A stretch of 32,000 bases of DNA from Sulfolobus acidocaldarius DSM 639 (GCF_000012285.1 NC_007181.1:1560001-1592000), one strand, 5' to 3'; counted from the first letter of the stretch, positions 1 to 7,740 are shown. Notes: generated from the sequence alone by a model not told the origin. Made by a program: numbers and translations.

Positions 1-497
1 TTATAATTGAGGCAAATACTCTACTCTTAAAACTGAAATGAACCTTTTCTCAAGAGGATAAATTCTCTAAATTCATAAATAATTTTTCCCATCTTTCAAT
101 GTCTAATAGGAATTTCTAAATATTTCATCTGAGACTACCTAACATCATAATCTGATTTTATATACCTCTCTGGAATCAGACTCTCTCGTCTTAGTAAGTT
201 AAAATATTGTTATAAAATATGGAGCTAGTCACTCTCATTCCTAAAAATACCTAAAAAGGTTTAGCTTAACAGAGGTTGATTAATCATTTGTACCTAATGT
301 TCACACAGTTACTCTTTCACAACAATACTAAGGGTAATGTCATAATATCTATTATCCTATATATTTCTGCTTGTACAAAGGTATATTTTAGTTTAGATAT
401 AGTAATATATTTAGTATCAGCTAAAAATATATGATATTTCAATTTTTTATCCTTGTCTATTTAAATATGTAAAAAACAATAATAGGTTTGAACACAA

Positions 498-1211
498 ATG
501 AATCTAAACATTAAAACCGTAGCAATGATATCCGTAGCAGCTCTACTATTATCAATGCTAGTATACCAAGCTTTTGTAGCAGGATTCGTAGTGAGCAATT
601 CCGTGACAGGTAGTGTAGTTAGGATAAACTCAGAGAACGCTCTTCTTCAGATAGATCCATTAGAATTTTCCTTAATCTCTAACAATGGTGGATTATCAAT
701 ACAATTACCAGCCATAGGTCCAGGTACAGCTGACTATGCAGCTTTCCTTTATGACTCACATTCCAATGTTGTAGCTAGCTATTCAGCAGCATATCTATTT
801 GCAATAGTTGAGGTAGAGTTTAACTACCCAGGTAATAATAATCAAGTGATCAATGTAGCAGCGTCCTTAGAACATGTGACTAATAACACTCCTATCCAGA
901 TCCTAGTACTAGGAACCCATGGTTCTACAATGGACCCCATAACCTCATTCCCTAACAATTCAATATCTGTTGATCCTACGAACACTCCAGGAACAGTCAT
1001 GATAAATGGTCTTCAATTTACAGTTTTAGGAAGTTATGGTTTACCATCTTCAGTGTCTTCTGCTATAGGTAGTACAACTGCAACAATAGGCTCTGGTAGT
1101 AGTAATGGAGAAGTAGTATACGTGTTAATATTATTACCATCCTACGGAACTGTACCAGCCTCAGGCTCTAGTTTTTCAGCTGCACTAAACTTCTACGGAT
1201 ATCAGAGTTAA
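498..1211 (+). CDS. Secreted beta-rich Ser/Thr/Asn/Gly-rich protein; candidate major subunit of a TasA/thread-like extracellular filament
   Basis: ATG ORF of 237 aa. A TATA-like box (ctatttaaatat, 457-468) lies about 35 nt upstream. N-terminal signal peptide KTVAMISVAALLLSMLVYQA|FVAGF. The mature part is low-complexity and beta-prone with several N-x-S/T sequons. It is the first gene of a same-strand cluster that contains a dedicated signal peptidase. The function is inferred from context and the signal-peptide motif only. Confidence 0.5.
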   Translation: MNLNIKTVAMISVAALLLSMLVYQAFVAGFVVSNSVTGSVVRINSENALLQIDPLEFSLISNNGGLSIQLPAIGPGTADYAAFLYDSHSNVVASYSAAYLFAIVEVEFNYPGNNNQVINVAASLEHVTNNTPIQILVLGTHGSTMDPITSFPNNSISVDPTNTPGTVMINGLQFTVLGSYGLPSSVSSAIGSTTATIGSGSSNGEVVYVLILLPSYGTVPASGSSFSAALNFYGYQS

Positions 1212-1250
1212 ACAGGTGAATAAGAGGGATGTAAATATAAATTAAAGGGG

Positions 1251-1256
1251 TTTTTT
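1251..1256 (+). terminator. Oligo-T run (T6) between the putative subunit gene and the peptidase gene; possible partial terminator
   Basis: The sequence aaaggggTTTTTTaATG sits directly upstream of the 1258 start. Archaeal termination uses oligo-T tracts. The position after a putative major-subunit gene fits an attenuating terminator, but this is untested. Confidence 0.25.
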
Positions 1257-1257
1257 A

Positions 1258-2364
1258 ATGTCTCCAAATATAATTTTTTCGTTTTATTCATTAAAAGTAT
1301 TAAAGATCATAGGAAAGGTATTCGCTTTAATTGTTCTTATCTTCTCGATATTTCTCACCTTTACCAATTTAATGGGTAGACCGACTTTCGTAGCAATTAC
1401 TTACGGTTACAGCATGTTTCCTTACCTAAAACCTGGAGACGTTGCCATAACAATTCCCGAACCAGTAGCAGGAAAAATAACCAATGGCTCAATAGTCGTA
1501 ATAAAAGACCCAGATTACGGTGTACTACCAGGTTATCCACCGTATATAATACACCAGGTAATTAACGTATTACCAAATGGGTCCTTCGTAACTAAGGGAA
1601 TTAATGATAACTTCGTGGATCAGATCTACATGCCTCCTGTAACAGTTTCCAACATATACGCCAAACTCCTAGTCATAAATAATAATCCTGTGGTAATACC
1701 ATACTTAGGGGAAATACTCAACAGCGCTAGGCTCAACTTAATTCCCTCTGTAGGGATGTTGGCGTTATTGGGAATTTCCTTTGCTGTCTTAGACAGGAGG
1801 AACAATAAAAGTAAAAAGAGGAGAAAAATAAACAACAGTGAATATGTTAACCTGAAAATTGTCGTGTTTTTCTTGTCCATCTTTGTGTTTTCCGTCTTCG
1901 TGATCATGGCTAGCGCACAGACCTCTAACACTACAGTAGTTTACTTGGTGTCCAGAACGCCAGGATATTTATACGGGGGAACACTCCAGTCCTCTTCAGT
2001 AAATCTGGGTGTACTATTGTATAATCAAACGAAGTCTTATGTATTTAATATAACAAACAGACTAGAAATCCCTGAAATAGTTACAGTAAACCTGCAGGGA
2101 GATGGAAATGAAAGTTATAATGTTACTCCATCACACTCATTTATCCTATATCCAGGTCAAGAAAAGAGCATCAACTTAACCGTAAAAAGCGTGGGAAACC
2201 AGGGATTGCATGAGTTATTGGTGGAGGCATTTGTGATACCGACGTTATTTCCCTTATCGCTAAACGTGGTTAGCCCAATATTATCTCTTTTTCTATACTC
2301 AATACTTAATACCTTTCTTGTGTTAATTGTAATATCGTTGTTAATTTCTAGGGTGAGAGTGTGA
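1258..2364 (+). CDS. Signal peptidase I, Sec11/SipW (S26B) type, with a long C-terminal membrane/extracellular extension
   Basis: 368 aa. N-terminal TM helix, then the S26 boxes: YGYSMFPYLKPGD (catalytic Ser52), YIIHQV (His99) and TKGINDNFVD (the GDNN..D-like box). Residues about 160-368 add a basic stretch (NNKSKKRRK), TM helices and a sequon-rich beta domain (NTT, NQT, NIT, NES, NVT, NLT). Confidence 0.8.
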   Translation: MSPNIIFSFYSLKVLKIIGKVFALIVLIFSIFLTFTNLMGRPTFVAITYGYSMFPYLKPGDVAITIPEPVAGKITNGSIVVIKDPDYGVLPGYPPYIIHQVINVLPNGSFVTKGINDNFVDQIYMPPVTVSNIYAKLLVINNNPVVIPYLGEILNSARLNLIPSVGMLALLGISFAVLDRRNNKSKKRRKINNSEYVNLKIVVFFLSIFVFSVFVIMASAQTSNTTVVYLVSRTPGYLYGGTLQSSSVNLGVLLYNQTKSYVFNITNRLEIPEIVTVNLQGDGNESYNVTPSHSFILYPGQEKSINLTVKSVGNQGLHELLVEAFVIPTLFPLSLNVVSPILSLFLYSILNTFLVLIVISLLISRVRV

Positions 2365-2771
2365 TAAAAATAGTCCTGGTAACTACTGTAATATTACTCA
2401 TAATCTCATTAACGTATCTGAGCTCCTTTGTCCCAGCCTTTGACATATCAAATTCCGATAACATTAACATTATATCGAATCTGGTCTATACGTCAGTCGT
2501 TAAAGTAAATAATATGAGCTTTGTGGAAGTGATGATCAATACCAGTTATTTGCAGTTAATTAATGAAATTGAAATAATAATACCAGGTAACGTATACCAT
2601 CTATCTACAATTGGTAAATCATTTAGTAATGGGAGTTCGATAAATATCATAATCACTCCTCCCATATATAGTTCGAATTTGGTGGAATTTTACACAAATT
2701 CGAATCGTGTCGTAAATATTCAAGTTATAATATACTACTCACAAGGAGATGTTGGAATATTAAGTTTATAA
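2361..2771 (+). CDS. Small signal-anchored secreted protein (possible minor filament subunit)
   Basis: 136 aa. The GTG start overlaps the upstream stop (GTGA). The N-terminal h-region IVLVTTVILLIISLTYL is followed by VPAFDISNSDN, an A-F-x-D type motif like SipW-cognate signal peptides. The rest is beta-prone. Confidence 0.55.
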   Translation: MIKIVLVTTVILLIISLTYLSSFVPAFDISNSDNINIISNLVYTSVVKVNNMSFVEVMINTSYLQLINEIEIIIPGNVYHLSTIGKSFSNGSSINIIITPPIYSSNLVEFYTNSNRVVNIQVIIYYSQGDVGILSL

Positions 2772-2797
2772 TTCTTTTAAAAATAAGTTTAGTAATA

Positions 2798-3679
2798 GTG
2801 TTACTAGGCTGTGCATCTGCATTAATATACTTGGGAATTCTATCTAACTCGACGGTTTATTTTCCTCAAAGAGTTGGAGTAGGTTCCTATCTAGCTAACA
2901 CTAAATATCAAACAACATTTTATATAAACGATTCTATACTTTTTAACAATAAGACTGAAATTAACACTAATAGTATGTTTAGTTCGTTGACAAAAAGCCT
3001 TGTAGTTAATGGTTATTTTTACACTACAGCAAACTCTTATACAGGGAATTTCACAGTAAATGAGACTATAGTTACCCCGTTATGGTCTAAACCATTAGGG
3101 ACTATATACAGAGGAAATCTCACTTCGCACTTCTTTTCATTTACTCCCAATTTCACTTACGCACAGAGCTTATTCTACCAGATAGATAAACAGTTGAGGA
3201 TTCCTATAAATTACTACTCTATACGTTTAAACATAAGTGTAAATGCTGTAATTATGTACCCATCAGGTAACGTTCCATTAAACTTTAGAGATTCATTGAC
3301 CATACAGAACGGTACGTATAATATCTCCGTTAATTACAATAATGATTCATTTGCATCAGGTAGTTTTTACAAGGAAATTTCAGTTGAGGAAGAAACAGGC
3401 TATAATTACTCGTATTTCTATGGCGCAGCGTTTCTGGTAATAATTGCCCTCTCAATATTATTTATCAGGATGTCGTTAAATATACAGAATGTAATAAATA
3501 AGAACTCAATTAGTGGTTCAAAACCACCTATGAATGCATCAGTGATAGAAATAAGAAAGGCTGAAGATTTCCTGAAACTTATTAAACAGTACAACGAGAA
3601 GGCTGTAAAATGCGATAATGATTACTATATTACTCATGACAACATAGTATATCTTTATCATGGAGAAAATAAAGTATAA
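2798..3679 (+). CDS. Heavily sequon-decorated extracellular protein with a C-terminal TM anchor and a cytoplasmic tail of about 70 aa
   Basis: 293 aa from the first canonical start (GTG 2798). At least 12 N-x-S/T sequons. C-terminal TM helix YGAAFLVIIALSILFI followed by a charged tail. The start is uncertain; see the finding for 2672-2800. Confidence 0.55.
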   Translation: MLLGCASALIYLGILSNSTVYFPQRVGVGSYLANTKYQTTFYINDSILFNNKTEINTNSMFSSLTKSLVVNGYFYTTANSYTGNFTVNETIVTPLWSKPLGTIYRGNLTSHFFSFTPNFTYAQSLFYQIDKQLRIPINYYSIRLNISVNAVIMYPSGNVPLNFRDSLTIQNGTYNISVNYNNDSFASGSFYKEISVEEETGYNYSYFYGAAFLVIIALSILFIRMSLNIQNVINKNSISGSKPPMNASVIEIRKAEDFLKLIKQYNEKAVKCDNDYYITHDNIVYLYHGENKV

Positions 3680-3684
3680 ATCAA

Positions 3685-3700
3685 GAGAAAAATTTTTTCT
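3685..3700 (+). terminator. Palindromic A7/T7 element with a T6 run directly after the cluster's last stop codon
   Basis: The sequence agaaaaattttttct (T-run at 3693-3698) begins 6 nt after the stop at 3679. It is followed by a 185-bp AT-rich gap. Confidence 0.35.
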
Positions 3701-3884
3701 AAATTATTTTATATTCTATTTGTATTTAAATCTTTTTCAATACAACCGTCATGTAGATGAGATAGTATATAAGCTATATAATTAGTCAGTTAATAGATTG
3801 GAAAATCAAGTGCCATTAAATTAAATGTTATACAAAACTTTATTATGTTAGACGACGAGAATATAGGGATAAAGAGATGTCAGT

Positions 3885-4205
3885 ATGCGGAGAAAGAAAA
3901 GGAGTTCAATACAAATAGTTATCAGCATATTAGAAGGGTGTAGATCTGGTGTCAAAAAGACAAAGTTGTTATATGTTACTAATTTGAGTTCTCGCCCATT
4001 TTACAAATATATGAAGGTACTAGAGGAGAGTGGTCTTATCTATTTTGAACCGAGTACCAGAGAATACATCTTAGCTCCGAAGGGGAGAAATGTGTTAGAA
4101 AAATCCAAAAGATACCTAGAGTTGTTGGAACAGTTAGATAAGATTAGACCAGATATTACTGACCTCATAGATAGAGTAAAGGAAGATAAAAGGAAGGGGA
4201 AATAA
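3885..4205 (+). CDS. Small winged-helix DNA-binding protein (archaeal COG3432-like wHTH regulator)
   Basis: 106 aa. Basic N-terminus. The pattern IQIVISILEGCRSGVKKTKLLYVTNLSSRPFYKYMKVLEESGLIYFE is typical of helix-turn-helix plus wing. The C-terminus is a coiled-coil tail. Confidence 0.6.
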   Translation: MRRKKRSSIQIVISILEGCRSGVKKTKLLYVTNLSSRPFYKYMKVLEESGLIYFEPSTREYILAPKGRNVLEKSKRYLELLEQLDKIRPDITDLIDRVKEDKRKGK

Positions 4206-4267
4206 ATAGAGGATGATGGACTTTTCAGCTAGGTGTAGTCCTAATTGTATCGTACATATTAGCGCTA

Positions 4268-4777
4268 TTGGCATATTGCTTCTTTAGGCTATCAATGAAA
4301 AAATATATGGAAGAAATAGAGAAAAGAGAAAGCGAAGCAATGATAAAAAGAACTTTAGATTTTCTTATATCCTTGTCTAAACTAATGAGTAATAGCGAGG
4401 TCAACGACCTATTAGAGGAGATTTTAACTTACATAACTAGTCTAAAGGGAAGGCAGTGGAAAGAGATATACGAGACAACCATAAAAAGGCTGGATCCTAT
4501 AAAAAGGGAATTAGACGACATAAGGCAAAAGGTTAACAATATTAAAGAGGTAGAAAATGCTTCAAGAAGGGCTAAATTATGTTACACAGCTCTTAATTAT
4601 TCTATGATTACTTTGATCTTAACATTCACAATTTCCATTTTATTTTACACAATCTTCATGGATTACATATACTCTTTCTTATTCCTAGAAATTGTTGAAA
4701 CAATTATAATATTCCTAGAGATATTATACCTTTACAAGACGTATAAAAAAATAGATATAAATATGTTTATTGAATAG
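4268..4777 (+). CDS. Coiled-coil protein with two C-terminal TM helices, function unknown
   Basis: The ORF track starts at TTG 4268. ATG 4295 (MKKYMEEIEK) is the more likely start. The N-terminal ~100 aa are helical and charged. The C-terminus has hydrophobic helices ITLILTFTISILFYTIF and FLFLEIVETIIIFLEILYLY. Confidence 0.55.
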   Translation: MAYCFFRLSMKKYMEEIEKRESEAMIKRTLDFLISLSKLMSNSEVNDLLEEILTYITSLKGRQWKEIYETTIKRLDPIKRELDDIRQKVNNIKEVENASRRAKLCYTALNYSMITLILTFTISILFYTIFMDYIYSFLFLEIVETIIIFLEILYLYKTYKKIDINMFIE

Positions 4778-4897
4778 AGAATCTTTCGACAGAGATGCTT
4801 CTAACTCTAATAAATATATTCAAAGGAGTACTAGAACTCAATAGCGTTAACAATAACTTTAAATATTTTTAGGGTATCCCAAATAATAGGAGTAAAA

Positions 4898-5779
4898 ATG
4901 TTTAGCCTAAATACGTTGTTAAACCCACCAGATAATCTTTCCGTCGGAGAAATAATACTCATATCCTTAATACTAGGAATGTTACACGGTGTTACGCCAG
5001 ACGAACATACATGGCCTATAACATTTAGTTACGCTATAGGTAAATACAGCACTAAGGGAGGAATGAAGGCAGGTTTCCTCTTCTCATTAGGCTTTACGAT
5101 TCAGAGGGCATTTCTAACTACTATAGGATTCCTAGGGTTAGCCGCAATATACAATCAGTACAATTTGGACGGTCCAGTATATGCAGTTGTAGGTATTGTA
5201 ATGGCTATTGCCGGTTCGTATATACTGAAGGGAAAATATATACACTTACCCATTGACGCTCTATTCAAGAGTAAGCAACACACAGAAGAAGCAGGTAAGG
5301 TAAAGGATATCCCAATTAAGATGACAATAGTGCACGGTCTGGTTGCAGGCTTCGGGTTCGGTGCATATGCAACTATAATTACCTTCGTATTAGCTCCCCA
5401 GTTACCTTCAGTGGTATATGCACCATTACCTGGACTGTTCTTTGGTTTAGGTACAATGGTGATGCAGATAATATTTGGTATGATATTTGGTAACATATTG
5501 CGACTGAAGAAAATGACTGAAGAACAGTTATCGTTTATTGCTAGAAAGACCGCTGGAAGAGTCCTATATTATGGAGGCTTAGTATTTCTTATAGTCGGTC
5601 TCTTAATAATTGTTTTGCCTGCTATTGATAATTTCGCTATATCTACAGGTAATCCAATACCTAACCTTGATGCAATAAATATAGGATTTTTACTTGTGAT
5701 ATCCGTTGTTGGAGTAATAGGAATTAGTAGCATCCTCTATGGGTTTAGAGAGGCTAAGAGGTTAGCTAAACATATATAA
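4898..5779 (+). CDS. Polytopic membrane protein; possible NicO/RcnA-like metal-ion transporter (weak)
   Basis: 293 aa with about 8 TM helices. The ATG is preceded by an aggag. His-containing TM motifs LHGVTPDEHTWP and IVHGLVAGFGFG resemble NicO-type H..P..H signatures. The family assignment is tentative. Confidence 0.45.
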   Translation: MFSLNTLLNPPDNLSVGEIILISLILGMLHGVTPDEHTWPITFSYAIGKYSTKGGMKAGFLFSLGFTIQRAFLTTIGFLGLAAIYNQYNLDGPVYAVVGIVMAIAGSYILKGKYIHLPIDALFKSKQHTEEAGKVKDIPIKMTIVHGLVAGFGFGAYATIITFVLAPQLPSVVYAPLPGLFFGLGTMVMQIIFGMIFGNILRLKKMTEEQLSFIARKTAGRVLYYGGLVFLIVGLLIIVLPAIDNFAISTGNPIPNLDAINIGFLLVISVVGVIGISSILYGFREAKRLAKHI

Positions 5780-5906
5780 TAAAACGTAAAAAAGTGGACA
5801 ATTTAGTTTTAGAATATAAATTATCTAGCGCCAATTTTATTAGAACCTCATCTTTTTAATCTAGACTAAACCACAAAACAAGTTAATCATTTTTATCGAG
5901 ATGACC

Positions 5907-5987
5907 AAATTTTCATGGAAAAGTTTTCAGTAATTGAAAATATGAAGATCTGACGATATTTTTGCAAAAATTTTCATGGAAAAGTTT
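5907..5987. repeat. Two perfect 20-bp direct repeats (aaattttcatggaaaagttt) at 5907-5926 and 5968-5987, upstream of the ABC-2 operon
   Basis: Read directly from the sequence. Each copy contains the inverted core TTTTC-atg-GAAAA. Copy 2 abuts the TATA-like tgtataaatt (5991-6000) of the gene starting at 6017. The copies are 61 bp apart. Confidence 0.6.
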
Positions 5988-6016
5988 AATTGTATAAATT
6001 GTCCATTCATTAATTA

Positions 6017-6946
6017 ATGATAGAAGTAATGAATATATCGAAATCATTCAAGTTTAAGGGCAGAGTAATTAATGCTTTGGACAACGTGAGTTTTAAAATC
6101 GAAAACAAGAGTATTGGAGCATTGGTAGGACCTAATGGGGCTGGTAAAACTACCCTAATTAAGATACTCTCTACCCTTATAATACCTTCCAGTGGAGATG
6201 CACTGGTAAATGGATATAGTGTAGTAAAGGAGGAGAAAAAAGTTAGAGAATCTATTGGCTTGATGACGGTCAGTGAGAGGCTCTTCTATTATAGGCTGAC
6301 CGCCCTAGAGAACTTGATCTTTTTCGCCAGCCTACAAAACCTATCATTATCAGACGCCAGACGAAGGGCAATGGAAATGTTAGAGTTAGTTGGTCTTTCT
6401 GAGTGGGCTAATTTACCCTATATGAAATTTAGTACAGGGATGCAGAGAAAATTGGCTCTAGCCAGAGCTTTGATAACCGACCCTCCTGTGTTATTACTTG
6501 ACGAGCCAACATTAGGGCTCGACCCGTTATCAGCTAGGATGTTTAGAGACCTAGTGAGAAGGATAGGAAAAGAAAAGACAATCCTGTTAACCTCTCATTA
6601 TATGAAAGATATAGAGGAACTATCTGAGAAGACAATACTCCTAAAGAAGGGTAAAGTGTTAGTAGAGGGAGATAGGGAATCTTTAAAGAGTTATATAGGA
6701 AAGGTGTGTGAGGTTGAGGTAAATGAATATCCCTCCTCTTTAGGGAAATACATTATAGAGACCGGGAGTAATTACTACATTTTAAGGGTACCGGAAAGGG
6801 AATTGGAGGAATTAAGGGACTACAGAGTGATTAAGGAGGAAGAACCTTCATTAGAGGACGTCTATGTTTATTTAATAGGCGATGTGGAGGACTCGGCTAG
6901 ATTTGAGGCTGTCAAGAGAGGGGGGAGGTGGAGAGGATGGGAATAA
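6017..6946 (+). CDS. ABC transporter ATP-binding protein (ABC-2/DrrA-like exporter type)
   Basis: 309 aa. Walker [10 protein letters not shown], signature [15 protein letters not shown], Walker [13 protein letters not shown]-loop TSHYM. Confidence 0.9.
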
Positions 6947-7740
6947 GTGGAAAAATATACTCTTTTCTATATTTGAGGGGTTTCAAGGTTTGGGTATCTT
7001 ATAGGACTCAAACGATTTTGACAGTCCTAGGGTGGGTCTTACCAGTCTTCACATATTACTTCGTTGGTACGTCCTTAGGAAACACGTTAGTCGCTGAGAT
7101 TGGAGTAAAGAATTATGTAGCCTTCTTTACTATAGGATTGGCTTTCCAAGGTTATGTATCCTCCGTTATATCTACCATAAGCCAAAGACTTAGAAATGAA
7201 CAGTTATACGGGACAATTGAGTATTATGTTATATCGAGAACCGGTACCTTAGGATTTTTACTTTACTCTGCGTTATGGGGATTATTATTGAACACTGTGA
7301 ATGCTGTAGTTATCTTAACAATAGGATATGCCTTGGGAGCGAACTACCATATAAACATCATAAGCACAATCACCATACTATTCCTGCTAATAATTTCAAC
7401 ACTTGGGATCGGAATGATTGCAGGAGCAGTGACAATGATAACAAAACAAGGAAATCCAATATCATTATTCTTTAACACATTCACCAACTTGCTAGGTGGG
7501 ACTGTTTTTCCTATAACAGCTCTACCGATCGTGGTCAGGTACATCAGTTACGGTATACCTCTTACATGGGCTCTAGAGGGGTTAAGAGGTAGTATGTTAC
7601 AGAACACACCGATAACTAGCATGTTAAACATCGTGGAGATACTTCTAATATTTGACGTTATCGTTGTTCCATTAGGCGTACTATCCTATAATTATGCTTT
7701 TAGGAAAGCTAGGGAAAAAGGGAGTTTAAGTGAGTATTAA
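6928..7740 (+). CDS. ABC-2 type transporter permease
   Basis: 270 aa with 6 TM helices. It overlaps the ATPase gene. The in-frame ATG at 6937 is preceded by the SD-like gaggtggagagg, so it may be the real start. Confidence 0.8.

What the first reader, a model, noticed from the sequence alone, without database searches (positions are those of the whole stretch)
498..3679. Four-gene secreted-protein cluster with a dedicated Sec11/SipW-type signal peptidase: candidate TasA/thread-type filament locus
Gene order is a 237-aa secreted beta-rich protein, an S26B signal peptidase, a 136-aa signal-anchored protein and a 293-aa sequon-rich protein with a C-terminal anchor.

- The genes are tightly packed on one strand, with a GTGA overlap at 2361.
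- Two of the secreted proteins share an A-F motif just after the h-region (LVYQA-F-VAGF and SFVPA-F-DISNSDN). This is reminiscent of SipW-cognate signal peptides (A-x-F-x-D) of the Bacillus TasA/TapA system.
- Archaeal bundling pili (AbpA) and Sulfolobus acidocaldarius threads were reported to belong to the TasA-like donor-strand class, and I recall signal-peptidase genes in their neighbourhoods.
- Here the peptidase carries an unusual extension of about 200 aa, with extra TM helices and a glycosylated extracellular domain. That extension could act as the assembly platform.

The roles of the 136-aa and 293-aa proteins (cap, anchor or adaptor) are unknown.
Basis: partly seen in the sequence, partly recalled or inferred. 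Interest (0 to 1): 0.6.

Follow-up and report, generated by a model that had tools for sequence, protein, structure and literature searches.

The report
Silent Tafi-like filament locus in Sulfolobus
Sulfolobus acidocaldarius carries a conserved but almost silent gene cluster with its own signal peptidase, a helper protein and two matching secreted proteins; it is built like the "Tafi"/TasA-type fibre loci of other archaea, although a 2025 paper reports that this species lacks the Tafi pilin gene.

Summary
The four ORFs exist exactly as described. The window is S. acidocaldarius, genome position 1,560,001-1,592,000.

- **Peptidase.** The 368-aa protein is a second, non-housekeeping S26 signal peptidase. 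It has four TM helices and a sequon-rich outer domain, the TafD architecture. It scores 63 bits against a Haloferax mediterranei Tafi-locus peptidase but 32 bits against its own genome's canonical SPase I.
- **293-aa protein.** It is a divergent DUF5305 (TafG-like SPase accessory), not a simple anchored glycoprotein.
- **237- and 136-aa proteins.** They share a post-helix motif, F-x-[AP]-[GA]-F-x-[VI]-S-N, found nowhere else in the genome. Each model shows a conserved, disordered N-terminal stretch followed by a beta-sandwich.
- **Pilin membership.** The 237-aa family shows no detectable sequence homology to thread, TafE-like or TasA families. Foldseek gives only weak hits, though they are enriched for donor-strand pilins (best: thread 7pnb, E 0.016).
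- **Conservation and expression.** The locus occurs in 8 of 47 Sulfolobaceae species. It is under strong purifying selection (dN/dS 0.05-0.13) but barely transcribed in chemostat cultures.

Verdict: a new variant of the dedicated-peptidase/DUF5305 strand-donation fibre locus, with a new candidate subunit family. Filament formation is not shown.

The parts
460..467 (+). TATA-like box TTTAAATA, about 30 nt upstream of the ATG of the 237-aa gene. Probable promoter giving a near-leaderless mRNA.
   Evidence: Read from the sequence. Its role is an inference from known Sulfolobus promoter geometry.
498..1211 (+). 237-aa secreted beta-sandwich protein, the candidate major fibre subunit. Order: N-terminal helix, cognate motif FVAG|FVVSNS, then a conserved disordered stretch of about 20 residues (candidate donor strand). 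It represents a new family restricted to Sulfolobaceae.
   Evidence: most conserved segment is residues 21-51; AF2 pLDDT 68.5, pTM 0.70, residues 18-44 below 50; Foldseek; dN/dS 0.052.
1247..1257 (+). GGGG (Shine-Dalgarno-like) followed by a T6 tract directly before the peptidase ATG. GG[GT]G plus T6-8 is conserved in 6 of 6 orthologous loci from 3 genera. Possible leaky terminator or SD spacer.
   Evidence: Function is inferred.
1258..2364 (+). 368-aa TafD-type dedicated signal peptidase I (S26, Ser52/His99) with 4 TM helices and a second, sequon-rich extracellular domain between TM3 and TM4.
   Evidence: hhalign to H. mediterranei Tafi-locus SPase: prob 99.1, E 5.8e-19; 63.2 bits versus 31.6 bits to its own canonical SPase.
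2361..2771 (+). 136-aa second cognate substrate, a candidate minor subunit, cap or initiator. Order: N-terminal helix, motif FVPA|FDISNS, disordered linker at 22-38, then a compact beta-sandwich of about 95 aa.
   Evidence: AF2 pLDDT 77.8; generic beta-sandwich hits only; dN/dS 0.119.
2768..3679 (+). Divergent DUF5305 (TafG-like SPase I accessory). Order: N-terminal hydrophobic segment, extracellular domain of about 190 aa with 12 sequons, TM at 209-227, conserved cytoplasmic tail. The first canonical start is GTG 2798, but the frame is open from 2672. ATA 2768 overlaps the upstream stop as ATAA, at the position where orthologues have ATGA.
   Evidence: orthologue named DUF5305 and carrying PF17231; orthologue scores 36.3 bits against a cut-off of 29; this protein itself only E 1.
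3885..4205 (+). 106-aa HTH_45/Sso10a-family winged-helix protein, the candidate regulator of the locus. Homologous regulators sit in the same position in the other Sulfolobaceae locus type. A second one lies divergently upstream of the 237-aa gene, just outside the window.
   Evidence: E 3.7e-12 to the type B counterpart; BarR ChIP-seq peak in the spacer at window position 3826.
4268..4777 (+). 169-aa protein with a coiled coil and C-terminal TM helices. It is paired with the wHTH gene in both locus types.
   Evidence: (E 3e-4 to the type B counterpart).

Best explanation
This is a Sec-dependent relative of the Tafi/TasA-superfamily fibre loci, here called type A. The proposed mechanism has five steps.

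1. The 237-aa and 136-aa preproteins are exported by Sec and held in the membrane by their N-terminal helix.
2. The dedicated four-TM TafD-type peptidase, working with the DUF5305 accessory protein, recognises the shared motif F-V-[AP]-[GA]|F-x-[VI]-S-N and cuts after the G/A.
3. Cleavage frees an N-terminal beta-prone segment (FVVSNSVTGSVVRINSE...) that the monomer cannot bury.
4. That segment inserts into the beta-sandwich of the next subunit by donor-strand complementation, building a thin glycosylated fibre from the 237-aa protein. The 136-aa protein acts as a minor terminal subunit.
5. The flanking HTH_45 regulators and the coiled-coil membrane protein keep the locus almost off in laboratory culture.

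What is shown: the peptidase type, the DUF5305 identity, the shared motif, synteny, purifying selection and low expression.
What is inferred: the cleavage site, the substrate relationship, polymerisation and the roles of the regulators.
For: Peptidase:
- It is a second copy beside a canonical SPase I.
- The catalytic Ser and His are invariant.
- Its four-TM plus outer-domain topology equals that of the H. mediterranei Tafi-locus peptidase and the published TafD description.
- It scores 63 bits (E 1.4e-14) and hhalign prob 99.1 to that peptidase, against 32 bits to the housekeeping enzyme.

Accessory and regulators:
- The syntenic Metallosphaera orthologue of the 293-aa protein passes the Pfam DUF5305 threshold and is annotated as DUF5305.
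- A second Sulfolobaceae locus type (type B) has the same six-gene set. Its full-length peptidase is homologous (E 8e-16 over 376 columns), as are the wHTH (E 4e-12) and the coiled-coil protein (E 3e-4).
- Type B pilin N-termini (ATRDVNATVVG) resemble those of H. mediterranei Tafi pilins (ATREVEVNVVG).

Substrates:
- The motif is shared only by the two adjacent proteins.
- In the 237-aa family the N-terminal block of residues 21-51, which spans the end of the signal helix and the segment after the motif, is the most conserved part of the family, and most of it (residues 18-44) is unstructured in the monomer model.
- About 24 of the top 50 Foldseek hits for the 237-aa model are donor-strand pilins, led by thread 7pnb. 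The 136-aa model, run as an internal control, gives generic beta-sandwiches.

Co-occurrence and selection:
- The 237-aa, peptidase and 136-aa families co-occur in the same 8 of 47 species.
- dN/dS is 0.05-0.13 for every gene.
Against: - No Foldseek hit is significant (best E 0.016, TM 0.31-0.37), and the model is of moderate confidence (pLDDT 68.5).
- The 237-aa family shows no sequence or profile similarity to thread, type B/TafE-like, H. mediterranei Tafi pilins, Pfam TasA/DUF1102 or any PDB chain. The same method did recover thread relatives at 57-95% probability.
- The peptidase outer domain shows no detectable similarity to the H. mediterranei TafD outer domain.
- Published EM of S. acidocaldarius strains lacking archaella, Aap and Ups pili shows only threads (PMC12337348).
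- Saci_1793-1797 have normalised counts of 3-29, against about 1,000 for the thread gene (PMC11486757 supplement).
- No multimer prediction could be run.
Confidence: 0.55

Rival explanations
1. The locus is a dedicated maturation module for non-filamentous surface proteins. The TafD-type peptidase and DUF5305 process two small secreted or wall-associated beta-sandwich proteins, for example adhesins, S-layer-associated or matrix proteins, that do not polymerise.
For: - The fold evidence for a pilin is weak.
- The 136-aa model looks like a generic CBM, cohesin or adhesin-type sandwich.
- No extra filament is seen by EM in published mutants.
- There is no sequence link to any known fibre subunit.
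Against: - In the papers read here, characterised DUF5305-plus-dedicated-SPase loci are discussed in connection with strand-donation fibres: Tafi and AbpX.
- A conserved but unstructured N-terminal extension in both substrates is the hallmark of donor strands.
- The top Foldseek hits are enriched for donor-strand pilins.
Confidence: 0.3
2. The locus is a cryptic or decaying remnant that no longer functions in S. acidocaldarius.
For: - Expression is very low.
- The DUF5305 gene lacks a clean canonical start. In the sister species G035 it has none before codon 67.
- Distribution is patchy, and some related type B peptidase genes carry in-frame stops.
- G045 has a truncated DUF5305.
Against: - All ORFs are intact.
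- dN/dS between the two species of the genus is 0.05-0.13 for each gene, including the stretch upstream of the canonical start (0.11).
- The exact proteins recur on 57-84 assembled contigs.
Confidence: 0.08
3. The 368-aa protein is simply the cell's general signal peptidase, and its neighbours are ordinary secreted proteins.
For: It has the S26 catalytic Ser and His and an archaeal SPase I profile match.
Against: - A canonical 137-aa SPase I above the NCBIfam cut-off is encoded elsewhere. Similar short SPases were found in most Sulfolobaceae searched, and a long (type A or B) form in 19 of 47.
- The long form is closer to Tafi-locus peptidases than to the canonical one.
Confidence: 0.02

Closest known systems
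Tafi (Tat-fimbriae) loci of haloarchaea and their Sec-dependent relatives: tafA-G of Haloarcula hispanica and TafE pilus of Natrinema sp. J7-2 (PMC11821415, PMC12337348)
   Same: - A dedicated S26 peptidase with four TM helices and a second extracellular domain (TafD).
- An adjacent DUF5305 protein (TafG).
- Two or more small beta-rich secreted proteins with a conserved ...[GA]-F... motif just after the signal helix.
- A transcription regulator in the locus.
- The peptidase domain is clearly homologous (hhalign prob 99.1).
   Different: - Export is by Sec, not Tat.
- The candidate subunit (237 aa) has no detectable sequence homology to TafA/TafE.
- The regulator is HTH_45 rather than a membrane-bound Lrp/AsnC (TafB).
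- There is no TafC/TafF counterpart in S. acidocaldarius.
- No filament has been observed.
- PMC12337348 states that S. acidocaldarius lacks tafE. That holds for the type B pilin but misses this locus.
Type B Sulfolobaceae loci (G128, G148, G153 and others), most likely the 'Sulfolobales TafE homologues' of PMC12337348
   Same: Same six-gene set: pilin, long SPase, small secreted protein, DUF5305, HTH_45 and coiled-coil TM protein. The peptidase is homologous over its full length, and the regulators are homologous.
   Different: - The pilin family differs: 173-184 aa with an N-terminus like TafE, and hhalign to the 237-aa family gives prob 3%.
- DUF5305 is larger (435-495 aa).
- Type B lies in other species; only one genome (G137) has both types.
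Bacillus subtilis tapA-sipW-tasA operon
   Same: A Sec11/SipW-type dedicated peptidase is encoded between or next to a major and a minor secreted subunit that share a cognate A-F-type signal-peptide motif.
   Different: - SipW is a small protein without the extra TM helices and outer domain.
- There is no DUF5305 partner.
- No Peptidase_M73/TasA homology was detected in the 237-aa protein. The TasA fibre 8aur ranks only 18th, with E 0.17.
S. acidocaldarius thread (Saci_0406/0405) and AbpX loci
   Same: - Thread is the best, though weak, structural match (7pnb, prob 0.85).
- AbpX loci also combine a dedicated SPase I with DUF5305.
- Thread-like genes sit beside other long SPases in G021, G022, G053 and G076.
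   Different: - There is no sequence homology to the thread family (prob 0.5%).
- The S. acidocaldarius thread locus has no peptidase of its own.
- AbpX-type peptidases have about ten TM helices with a C-terminal catalytic domain, as in L047.

Membership tests
Tafi-type (TafD/TafG) strand-donation fibre locus | Dedicated S26 peptidase with four TM helices and two extracellular domains (TafD), homologous to Tafi-locus peptidases | tested here: met
   - Topology.
- Ser52/His99.
- hhalign prob 99.1, E 5.8e-19.
- 63.2 bits to the H. mediterranei Tafi-locus SPase versus 31.6 bits to its own canonical SPase.
- The outer domains themselves are not alignable.
Tafi-type (TafD/TafG) strand-donation fibre locus | Adjacent DUF5305 (TafG) accessory protein | tested here: met
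   The S. acidocaldarius protein alone scores only E 1 (9.2 bits), although it covers model positions 54-217. Its syntenic Metallosphaera orthologue (family profile E 1.9e-133) scores 36.3 bits against a cut-off of 29 and is named DUF5305 by NCBI.
Tafi-type (TafD/TafG) strand-donation fibre locus | Major subunit homologous to TafA/TafE | tested here: not met
   hhalign of the 237-aa family against H. mediterranei Tafi pilins gives prob 0.1% (1.8% against the 369-aa TafF-like protein of the same locus), and against the TafE-like type B pilins prob 3%. No type B pilin is found in this genome.
Tafi-type (TafD/TafG) strand-donation fibre locus | Twin-arginine signal on the subunits | tested here: not met
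   There is no RR motif and the N-termini are Sec-type. Sec-dependent relatives are already accepted in the literature.
Tafi-type (TafD/TafG) strand-donation fibre locus | Subunits polymerise by donor-strand complementation into a surface filament that depends on the peptidase | not testable with these tools
   No multimer prediction or experiment was possible. The indirect signs are a conserved disordered N-terminal extension and weak, pilin-enriched fold hits.
TasA/SipW/TapA system | Subunit with the TasA (Peptidase_M73/camelysin) jelly-roll, detectable by profile | tested here: not met
   No Pfam or NCBIfam hit and no PDB sequence hit. The TasA fibre 8aur ranks 18th, with E 0.17 and TM 0.29.
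TasA/SipW/TapA system | Dedicated Sec11-type peptidase plus two substrates that share a cognate signal-peptide motif | tested here: met
   Actual cleavage was not tested.
Thread (Saci_0406) family | Sequence homology to Saci_0406, including the A|DVIYYY mature N-terminus | tested here: not met
   hhalign of the 237-aa family against a 13-member thread alignment gives prob 0.5%. Positive controls from other Thermoproteota score 57-95%.
Thread (Saci_0406) family | Same fold as the solved thread subunit | tested here: inconclusive
   7pnb_A is the top Foldseek hit, but with E 0.016, prob 0.85 and TM 0.31/0.37, from a model with pLDDT 68.5.
Archaeal signal peptidase I (TIGR02228, S26B) | Score above the curated cut-off with the catalytic Ser and His | tested here: inconclusive
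   The score is 38.5 bits against a cut-off of 51.85, yet the catalytic residues and boxes are conserved. It is a divergent paralogue rather than the equivalog.

The most novel reading that the evidence does not exclude
S. acidocaldarius, the main genetic model for archaeal surface structures, encodes a fifth, conditionally expressed surface fibre. It would be built from a subunit family with no recognisable sequence relatives and matured by a TafD/DUF5305 peptidase complex. This would make the dedicated-SPase/DUF5305 module a general, subunit-agnostic assembly platform for strand-donation fibres across archaea.
Probability: 0.4. Interest if true: 0.7.

Novelty: new variant of a known kind. 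Interest (0 to 1): 0.55.

Why it matters
Strand-donation fibres (TasA, AbpA/AbpX, threads, Tafi, cannulae) are emerging as the main biofilm matrix fibres of archaea, but how they are assembled is unknown. The recurring pair of a multi-TM dedicated signal peptidase and DUF5305 is the best candidate for assembly machinery.

Finding that pair, with two cognate substrates, in genetically tractable S. acidocaldarius gives a place to test what the pair does. Deletion strains, inducible promoters and filament-free backgrounds already exist for this organism.

The finding also qualifies a published statement that the species lacks a Tafi-type system. It further adds a subunit family that profile searches from known pilins cannot reach.

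Tried and rejected
**Searches that found nothing**
- PDB sequence and profile searches with the 237-aa protein and its family.
- The exhaustive 1.8-billion-protein search returned only 3 cluster representatives, all the same small family.
- Pfam DUF1102 has no match in the genome.
- hhalign of the 237-aa family against type B pilins, Tafi pilins and the thread family was negative.

**Weak or negative comparisons**
- hhalign of the peptidase outer domain gave only a weak hint to type B pilins (prob 18%, E 0.0013). It gave nothing to the 237-aa family or to the H. mediterranei outer domain.
- A single H. mediterranei DUF5305 sequence against the 293-aa family gave nothing. The link rests on the Pfam model instead.

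**Supplement look-ups**
- Two S. acidocaldarius omics papers had no occurrence of the tags in the files held, and a third had a table cut before the locus.

**Ideas considered and rejected**
- A -1 frameshift fusing the 136-aa and 293-aa ORFs. The fusion would place the sequon-rich DUF5305 domain in the cytoplasm.
- The two 'CanX-like' S. acidocaldarius proteins named in PMC12518558 being this locus. Their accessions are adjacent to each other, whereas the peptidase gene separates these two genes. This was not verified by sequence.


Full report
**Where the window lies and what is in it.** The window is positions 1,560,001-1,592,000 of a one-contig, 2,225,959-bp genome. Its proteins are 95-97% identical to those of Sulfolobus acidocaldarius SUSAZ. 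Coordinates in a BarR ChIP-seq paper place Saci_1796 on the 293-aa ORF (PMC4977709). The cluster is therefore roughly Saci_1794-1798; the assignment of individual tags is inferred.

**The peptidase.**
- The 368-aa protein matches the archaeal SPase I model below its cut-off: TIGR02228, 38.5 bits against 51.85.
- It keeps the catalytic Ser52 (GYSMFP) and His99 (IIHQV) and the TKG box in all relatives.
- The genome encodes a separate 137-aa canonical SPase I that scores 92 bits. Similar short enzymes were found in most Sulfolobaceae searched.
- Hydropathy gives four TM helices (17-35, 159-177, 201-219, 341-359) and a basic cytoplasmic loop. An extracellular domain of about 115 aa with six sequons lies between TM3 and TM4.
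- This is the architecture published for TafD, the peptidase required for Tat-fimbriae in Haloarcula hispanica: four TM helices and two outside domains, the second Ig-like (PMC11821415).
- A tblastn search of plasmid records found such a peptidase on H. mediterranei pHM500. It sits in a locus with a DUF5305 protein, a LamG protein and Tat-signal proteins carrying a GAF motif.
- Against that 383-aa enzyme, which has the same four-TM layout, the S. acidocaldarius protein scores 63.2 bits (E 1.4e-14). Its family scores hhalign probability 99.1. It scores only 31.6 bits against its own housekeeping SPase.
- The outer domains are too diverged to align.

**The 293-aa protein.**
- A profile of four syntenic orthologues retrieved Metallosphaera proteins that NCBI names 'DUF5305 family protein' and that carry PF17231.
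- The Metallosphaera orthologue scores 36.3 bits against a cut-off of 29. The S. acidocaldarius protein itself reaches only E 1, although it spans model positions 54-217.
- Its layout is an N-terminal hydrophobic segment, a sequon-rich outer domain, one TM helix and a conserved cytoplasmic tail ending ...YYITHDNIVYLY.
- That layout fits the published description of DUF5305 as an SPase I accessory subunit in Tafi and AbpX loci (bioRxiv 10.64898/2026.01.04.697558).

**The two substrates.**
- The 237- and 136-aa proteins each begin with a hydrophobic helix followed by F-V-[AP]-[GA]-F-x-[VI]-S-N-S.
- The N-termini align at E 1.6e-4.
- A profile of the 136-aa family picks up the 237-aa N-terminus as its only other match, in both species of the genus.
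- A motif scan finds no other such protein in the genome, with the caveat that the pattern was derived from these two proteins.
- With V at -3 and G/A at -1, the likely cut is before the second F, not after YQA. This is an inference from the -3/-1 rule.
- AlphaFold2 models both as a helix, then a disordered stretch, then a beta-sandwich. The 237-aa model has pLDDT 68.5 and pTM 0.70, with residues 18-44 below 50. The 136-aa model has pLDDT 77.8, with residues 22-38 below 50.
- In the 237-aa family much of that unstructured stretch lies in the most conserved block of the protein, residues 21-51. This is what a donor strand would look like.
- Foldseek against the PDB gives no significant hit for the 237-aa model. 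The best is the S. acidocaldarius thread subunit 7pnb (E 0.016, prob 0.85, TM 0.31/0.37). About half of the top 50 are donor-strand pilins: CfaB, FimG/FimA, PapA/PapE, Csu, CupE and the TasA fibre.
- The 136-aa model gives only generic sandwiches such as CBMs, cohesin and collagen-binding domains. The pilin enrichment is therefore not automatic for any sandwich fold.

**What the 237-aa protein is not.**
- It has no Pfam, NCBIfam or PDB sequence relative.
- An exhaustive search of 1.8 billion representatives returned only its own small family.
- Profile-profile comparison is negative against a 13-member thread family (prob 0.5%). With the same method, thread-like proteins from other Thermoproteota score 57-95%.
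- It is also negative against the pilins of the second Sulfolobaceae locus type (prob 3%) and against the H. mediterranei Tafi pilins.
- Membership in TasA, thread or TafE families is therefore not established.

**Comparative context.**
- Type A, the locus type found here, occurs in 8 of 47 Sulfolobaceae species genomes. These are both species of the S. acidocaldarius genus, 4 of 6 in the genus that appears to be Metallosphaera and 2 of 8 in the one that appears to be Saccharolobus (genus names inferred from matching NCBI records).
- The 237-aa, peptidase and 136-aa families co-occur in the same genomes. The 237-aa gene is sometimes a few kb away.
- Twelve other species carry a type B locus with the same six-gene set: pilin of 173-184 aa, long peptidase, small secreted protein, DUF5305 of 435-495 aa, HTH_45 regulator and coiled-coil membrane protein.
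- Between the two types the peptidase aligns over its full length with the one here (E 8e-16 over 376 columns). The regulator pair is also homologous.
- Type B pilin N-termini (ATRDVNATVVG) resemble H. mediterranei Tafi pilins (ATREVEVNVVG). Type B is therefore very probably the 'Sulfolobales TafE homologues' of PMC12337348.
- That paper says S. acidocaldarius lacks tafE. This is true of type B, but it means the type A locus was missed.
- The searchable literature mentions these genes only in the BarR study.

**Is it alive?**
- dN/dS between the two species of the genus is 0.052 (237 aa), 0.072 (peptidase), 0.119 (136 aa) and 0.065 (DUF5305). The genes are therefore maintained by selection.
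- In chemostat RNA-seq, Saci_1793-1797 have normalised counts of 3-29. The thread subunit Saci_0406 has about 1,000 and its neighbour Saci_0405 about 37 (PMC11486757 supplement 2).
- This agrees with the published observation that only threads remain on strains lacking the three type IV filaments.
- The locus is thus conserved but nearly silent under laboratory conditions. My own read-mapping check could not be run.

**Regulatory and translational details.**
- A TATA-like box lies about 30 nt upstream of the first ATG.
- GG[GT]G followed by T6-8 directly precedes the peptidase ATG in six orthologous loci from three genera. This is compatible with a Shine-Dalgarno spacer or a leaky terminator that would keep the subunit in excess.
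- The DUF5305 frame is open 42 codons upstream of GTG 2798.
- In the sister species that GTG is GCG, and the first canonical start lies 67 codons further on. Those codons nevertheless evolve with dN/dS 0.11.
- Both species have ATAA at the upstream stop, in the position where several orthologues have the coupling overlap ATGA.
- A non-canonical AUA start is therefore likely in at least the sister species.

**Verdict.** The closest known system is Tafi/TafD-TafG, not threads or AbpA. The machinery half of the claim is well supported. The claim that the 237-aa protein forms a filament is plausible but unproven; I put it at about 0.45.

Noticed in passing
window 2672-2800; L036 5558-5776: The DUF5305 gene appears to start upstream of any canonical start codon. 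In the sister species G035 the GTG is GCG, and the 66 codons before its first ATG still show dN/dS 0.11. ATAA overlaps the upstream stop at the position where several orthologues have ATGA, which suggests an AUA start by translational coupling.
   Followed up: partly
window 1247-1257: GG[GT]G plus a T6-8 tract immediately before the peptidase ATG is conserved in 6 of 6 type A loci across three genera, although the rest of the spacer differs. It could be a leaky terminator or an SD spacer.
   Followed up: partly
window 3444 and 3826 (genome 1563444, 1563826): Published ChIP-seq places two binding regions of BarR, an Lrp-type regulator, inside the 3' part of the DUF5305 gene and in the spacer before the wHTH gene. 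One was validated by EMSA. barR deletion did not change Saci_1797 expression (PMC4977709).
   Followed up: no
L044 6061-10330; L045 5468-9223; L046 5728-8093; L048 5392-8954: Other Thermoproteota (G021, G022, G053, G076) have thread-like secreted proteins with FVYYP-type N-termini; those of G021, G022 and G053 were compared with the Saci_0406 family (hhalign 57-95%). They sit next to a different long signal peptidase (about 375-400 aa, three TM helices) and a multi-TM protein of about 200 aa. Thread-type fibres may therefore also have dedicated peptidases outside Sulfolobus.
   Followed up: partly
L047 3792-8056: G096 carries what looks like an AbpX-type locus: a wHTH gene, two TasA-like secreted proteins (AMW..TGE motif), a multi-TM peptidase with a C-terminal catalytic domain and a DUF5305 protein (25.5 bits). 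Its tail, YYLIVGDTAYVY, resembles that of the S. acidocaldarius protein.
   Followed up: partly
L040 3557-4672; L077 9167-10270: The Saccharolobus islandicus type A locus has an extra 371-aa LamG-like protein with a KRRDFIG (twin-arginine-like) N-terminus just upstream of the pilin gene. The H. mediterranei Tafi locus also encodes a LamG protein. It may be a tip adhesin that S. acidocaldarius lacks.
   Followed up: no
L034 5681-6430; L074 11235-11789; L076 9918-10490: Poly-proline inserts of 9-17 consecutive prolines (up to about 22 Pro-rich residues in all) occur in single members of both the 237-aa family (Sulfolobus sp. A20-like G045) and the type B pilin family. They look like recurrent loop expansions in these candidate fibre subunits.
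   Followed up: no
window 4898-5779: The 293-aa polytopic membrane protein just downstream, probably Saci_1798, is very highly expressed in the same RNA-seq table (normalised counts 3,000-7,600). This contrasts sharply with the silent cluster beside it.
   Followed up: no
G118, G083, G143 (one search places): Three type B long peptidase genes contain one or two in-frame TGA codons. G045 has a frameshifted DUF5305. These loci seem to be lost or inactivated often, which fits their patchy distribution.
   Followed up: no
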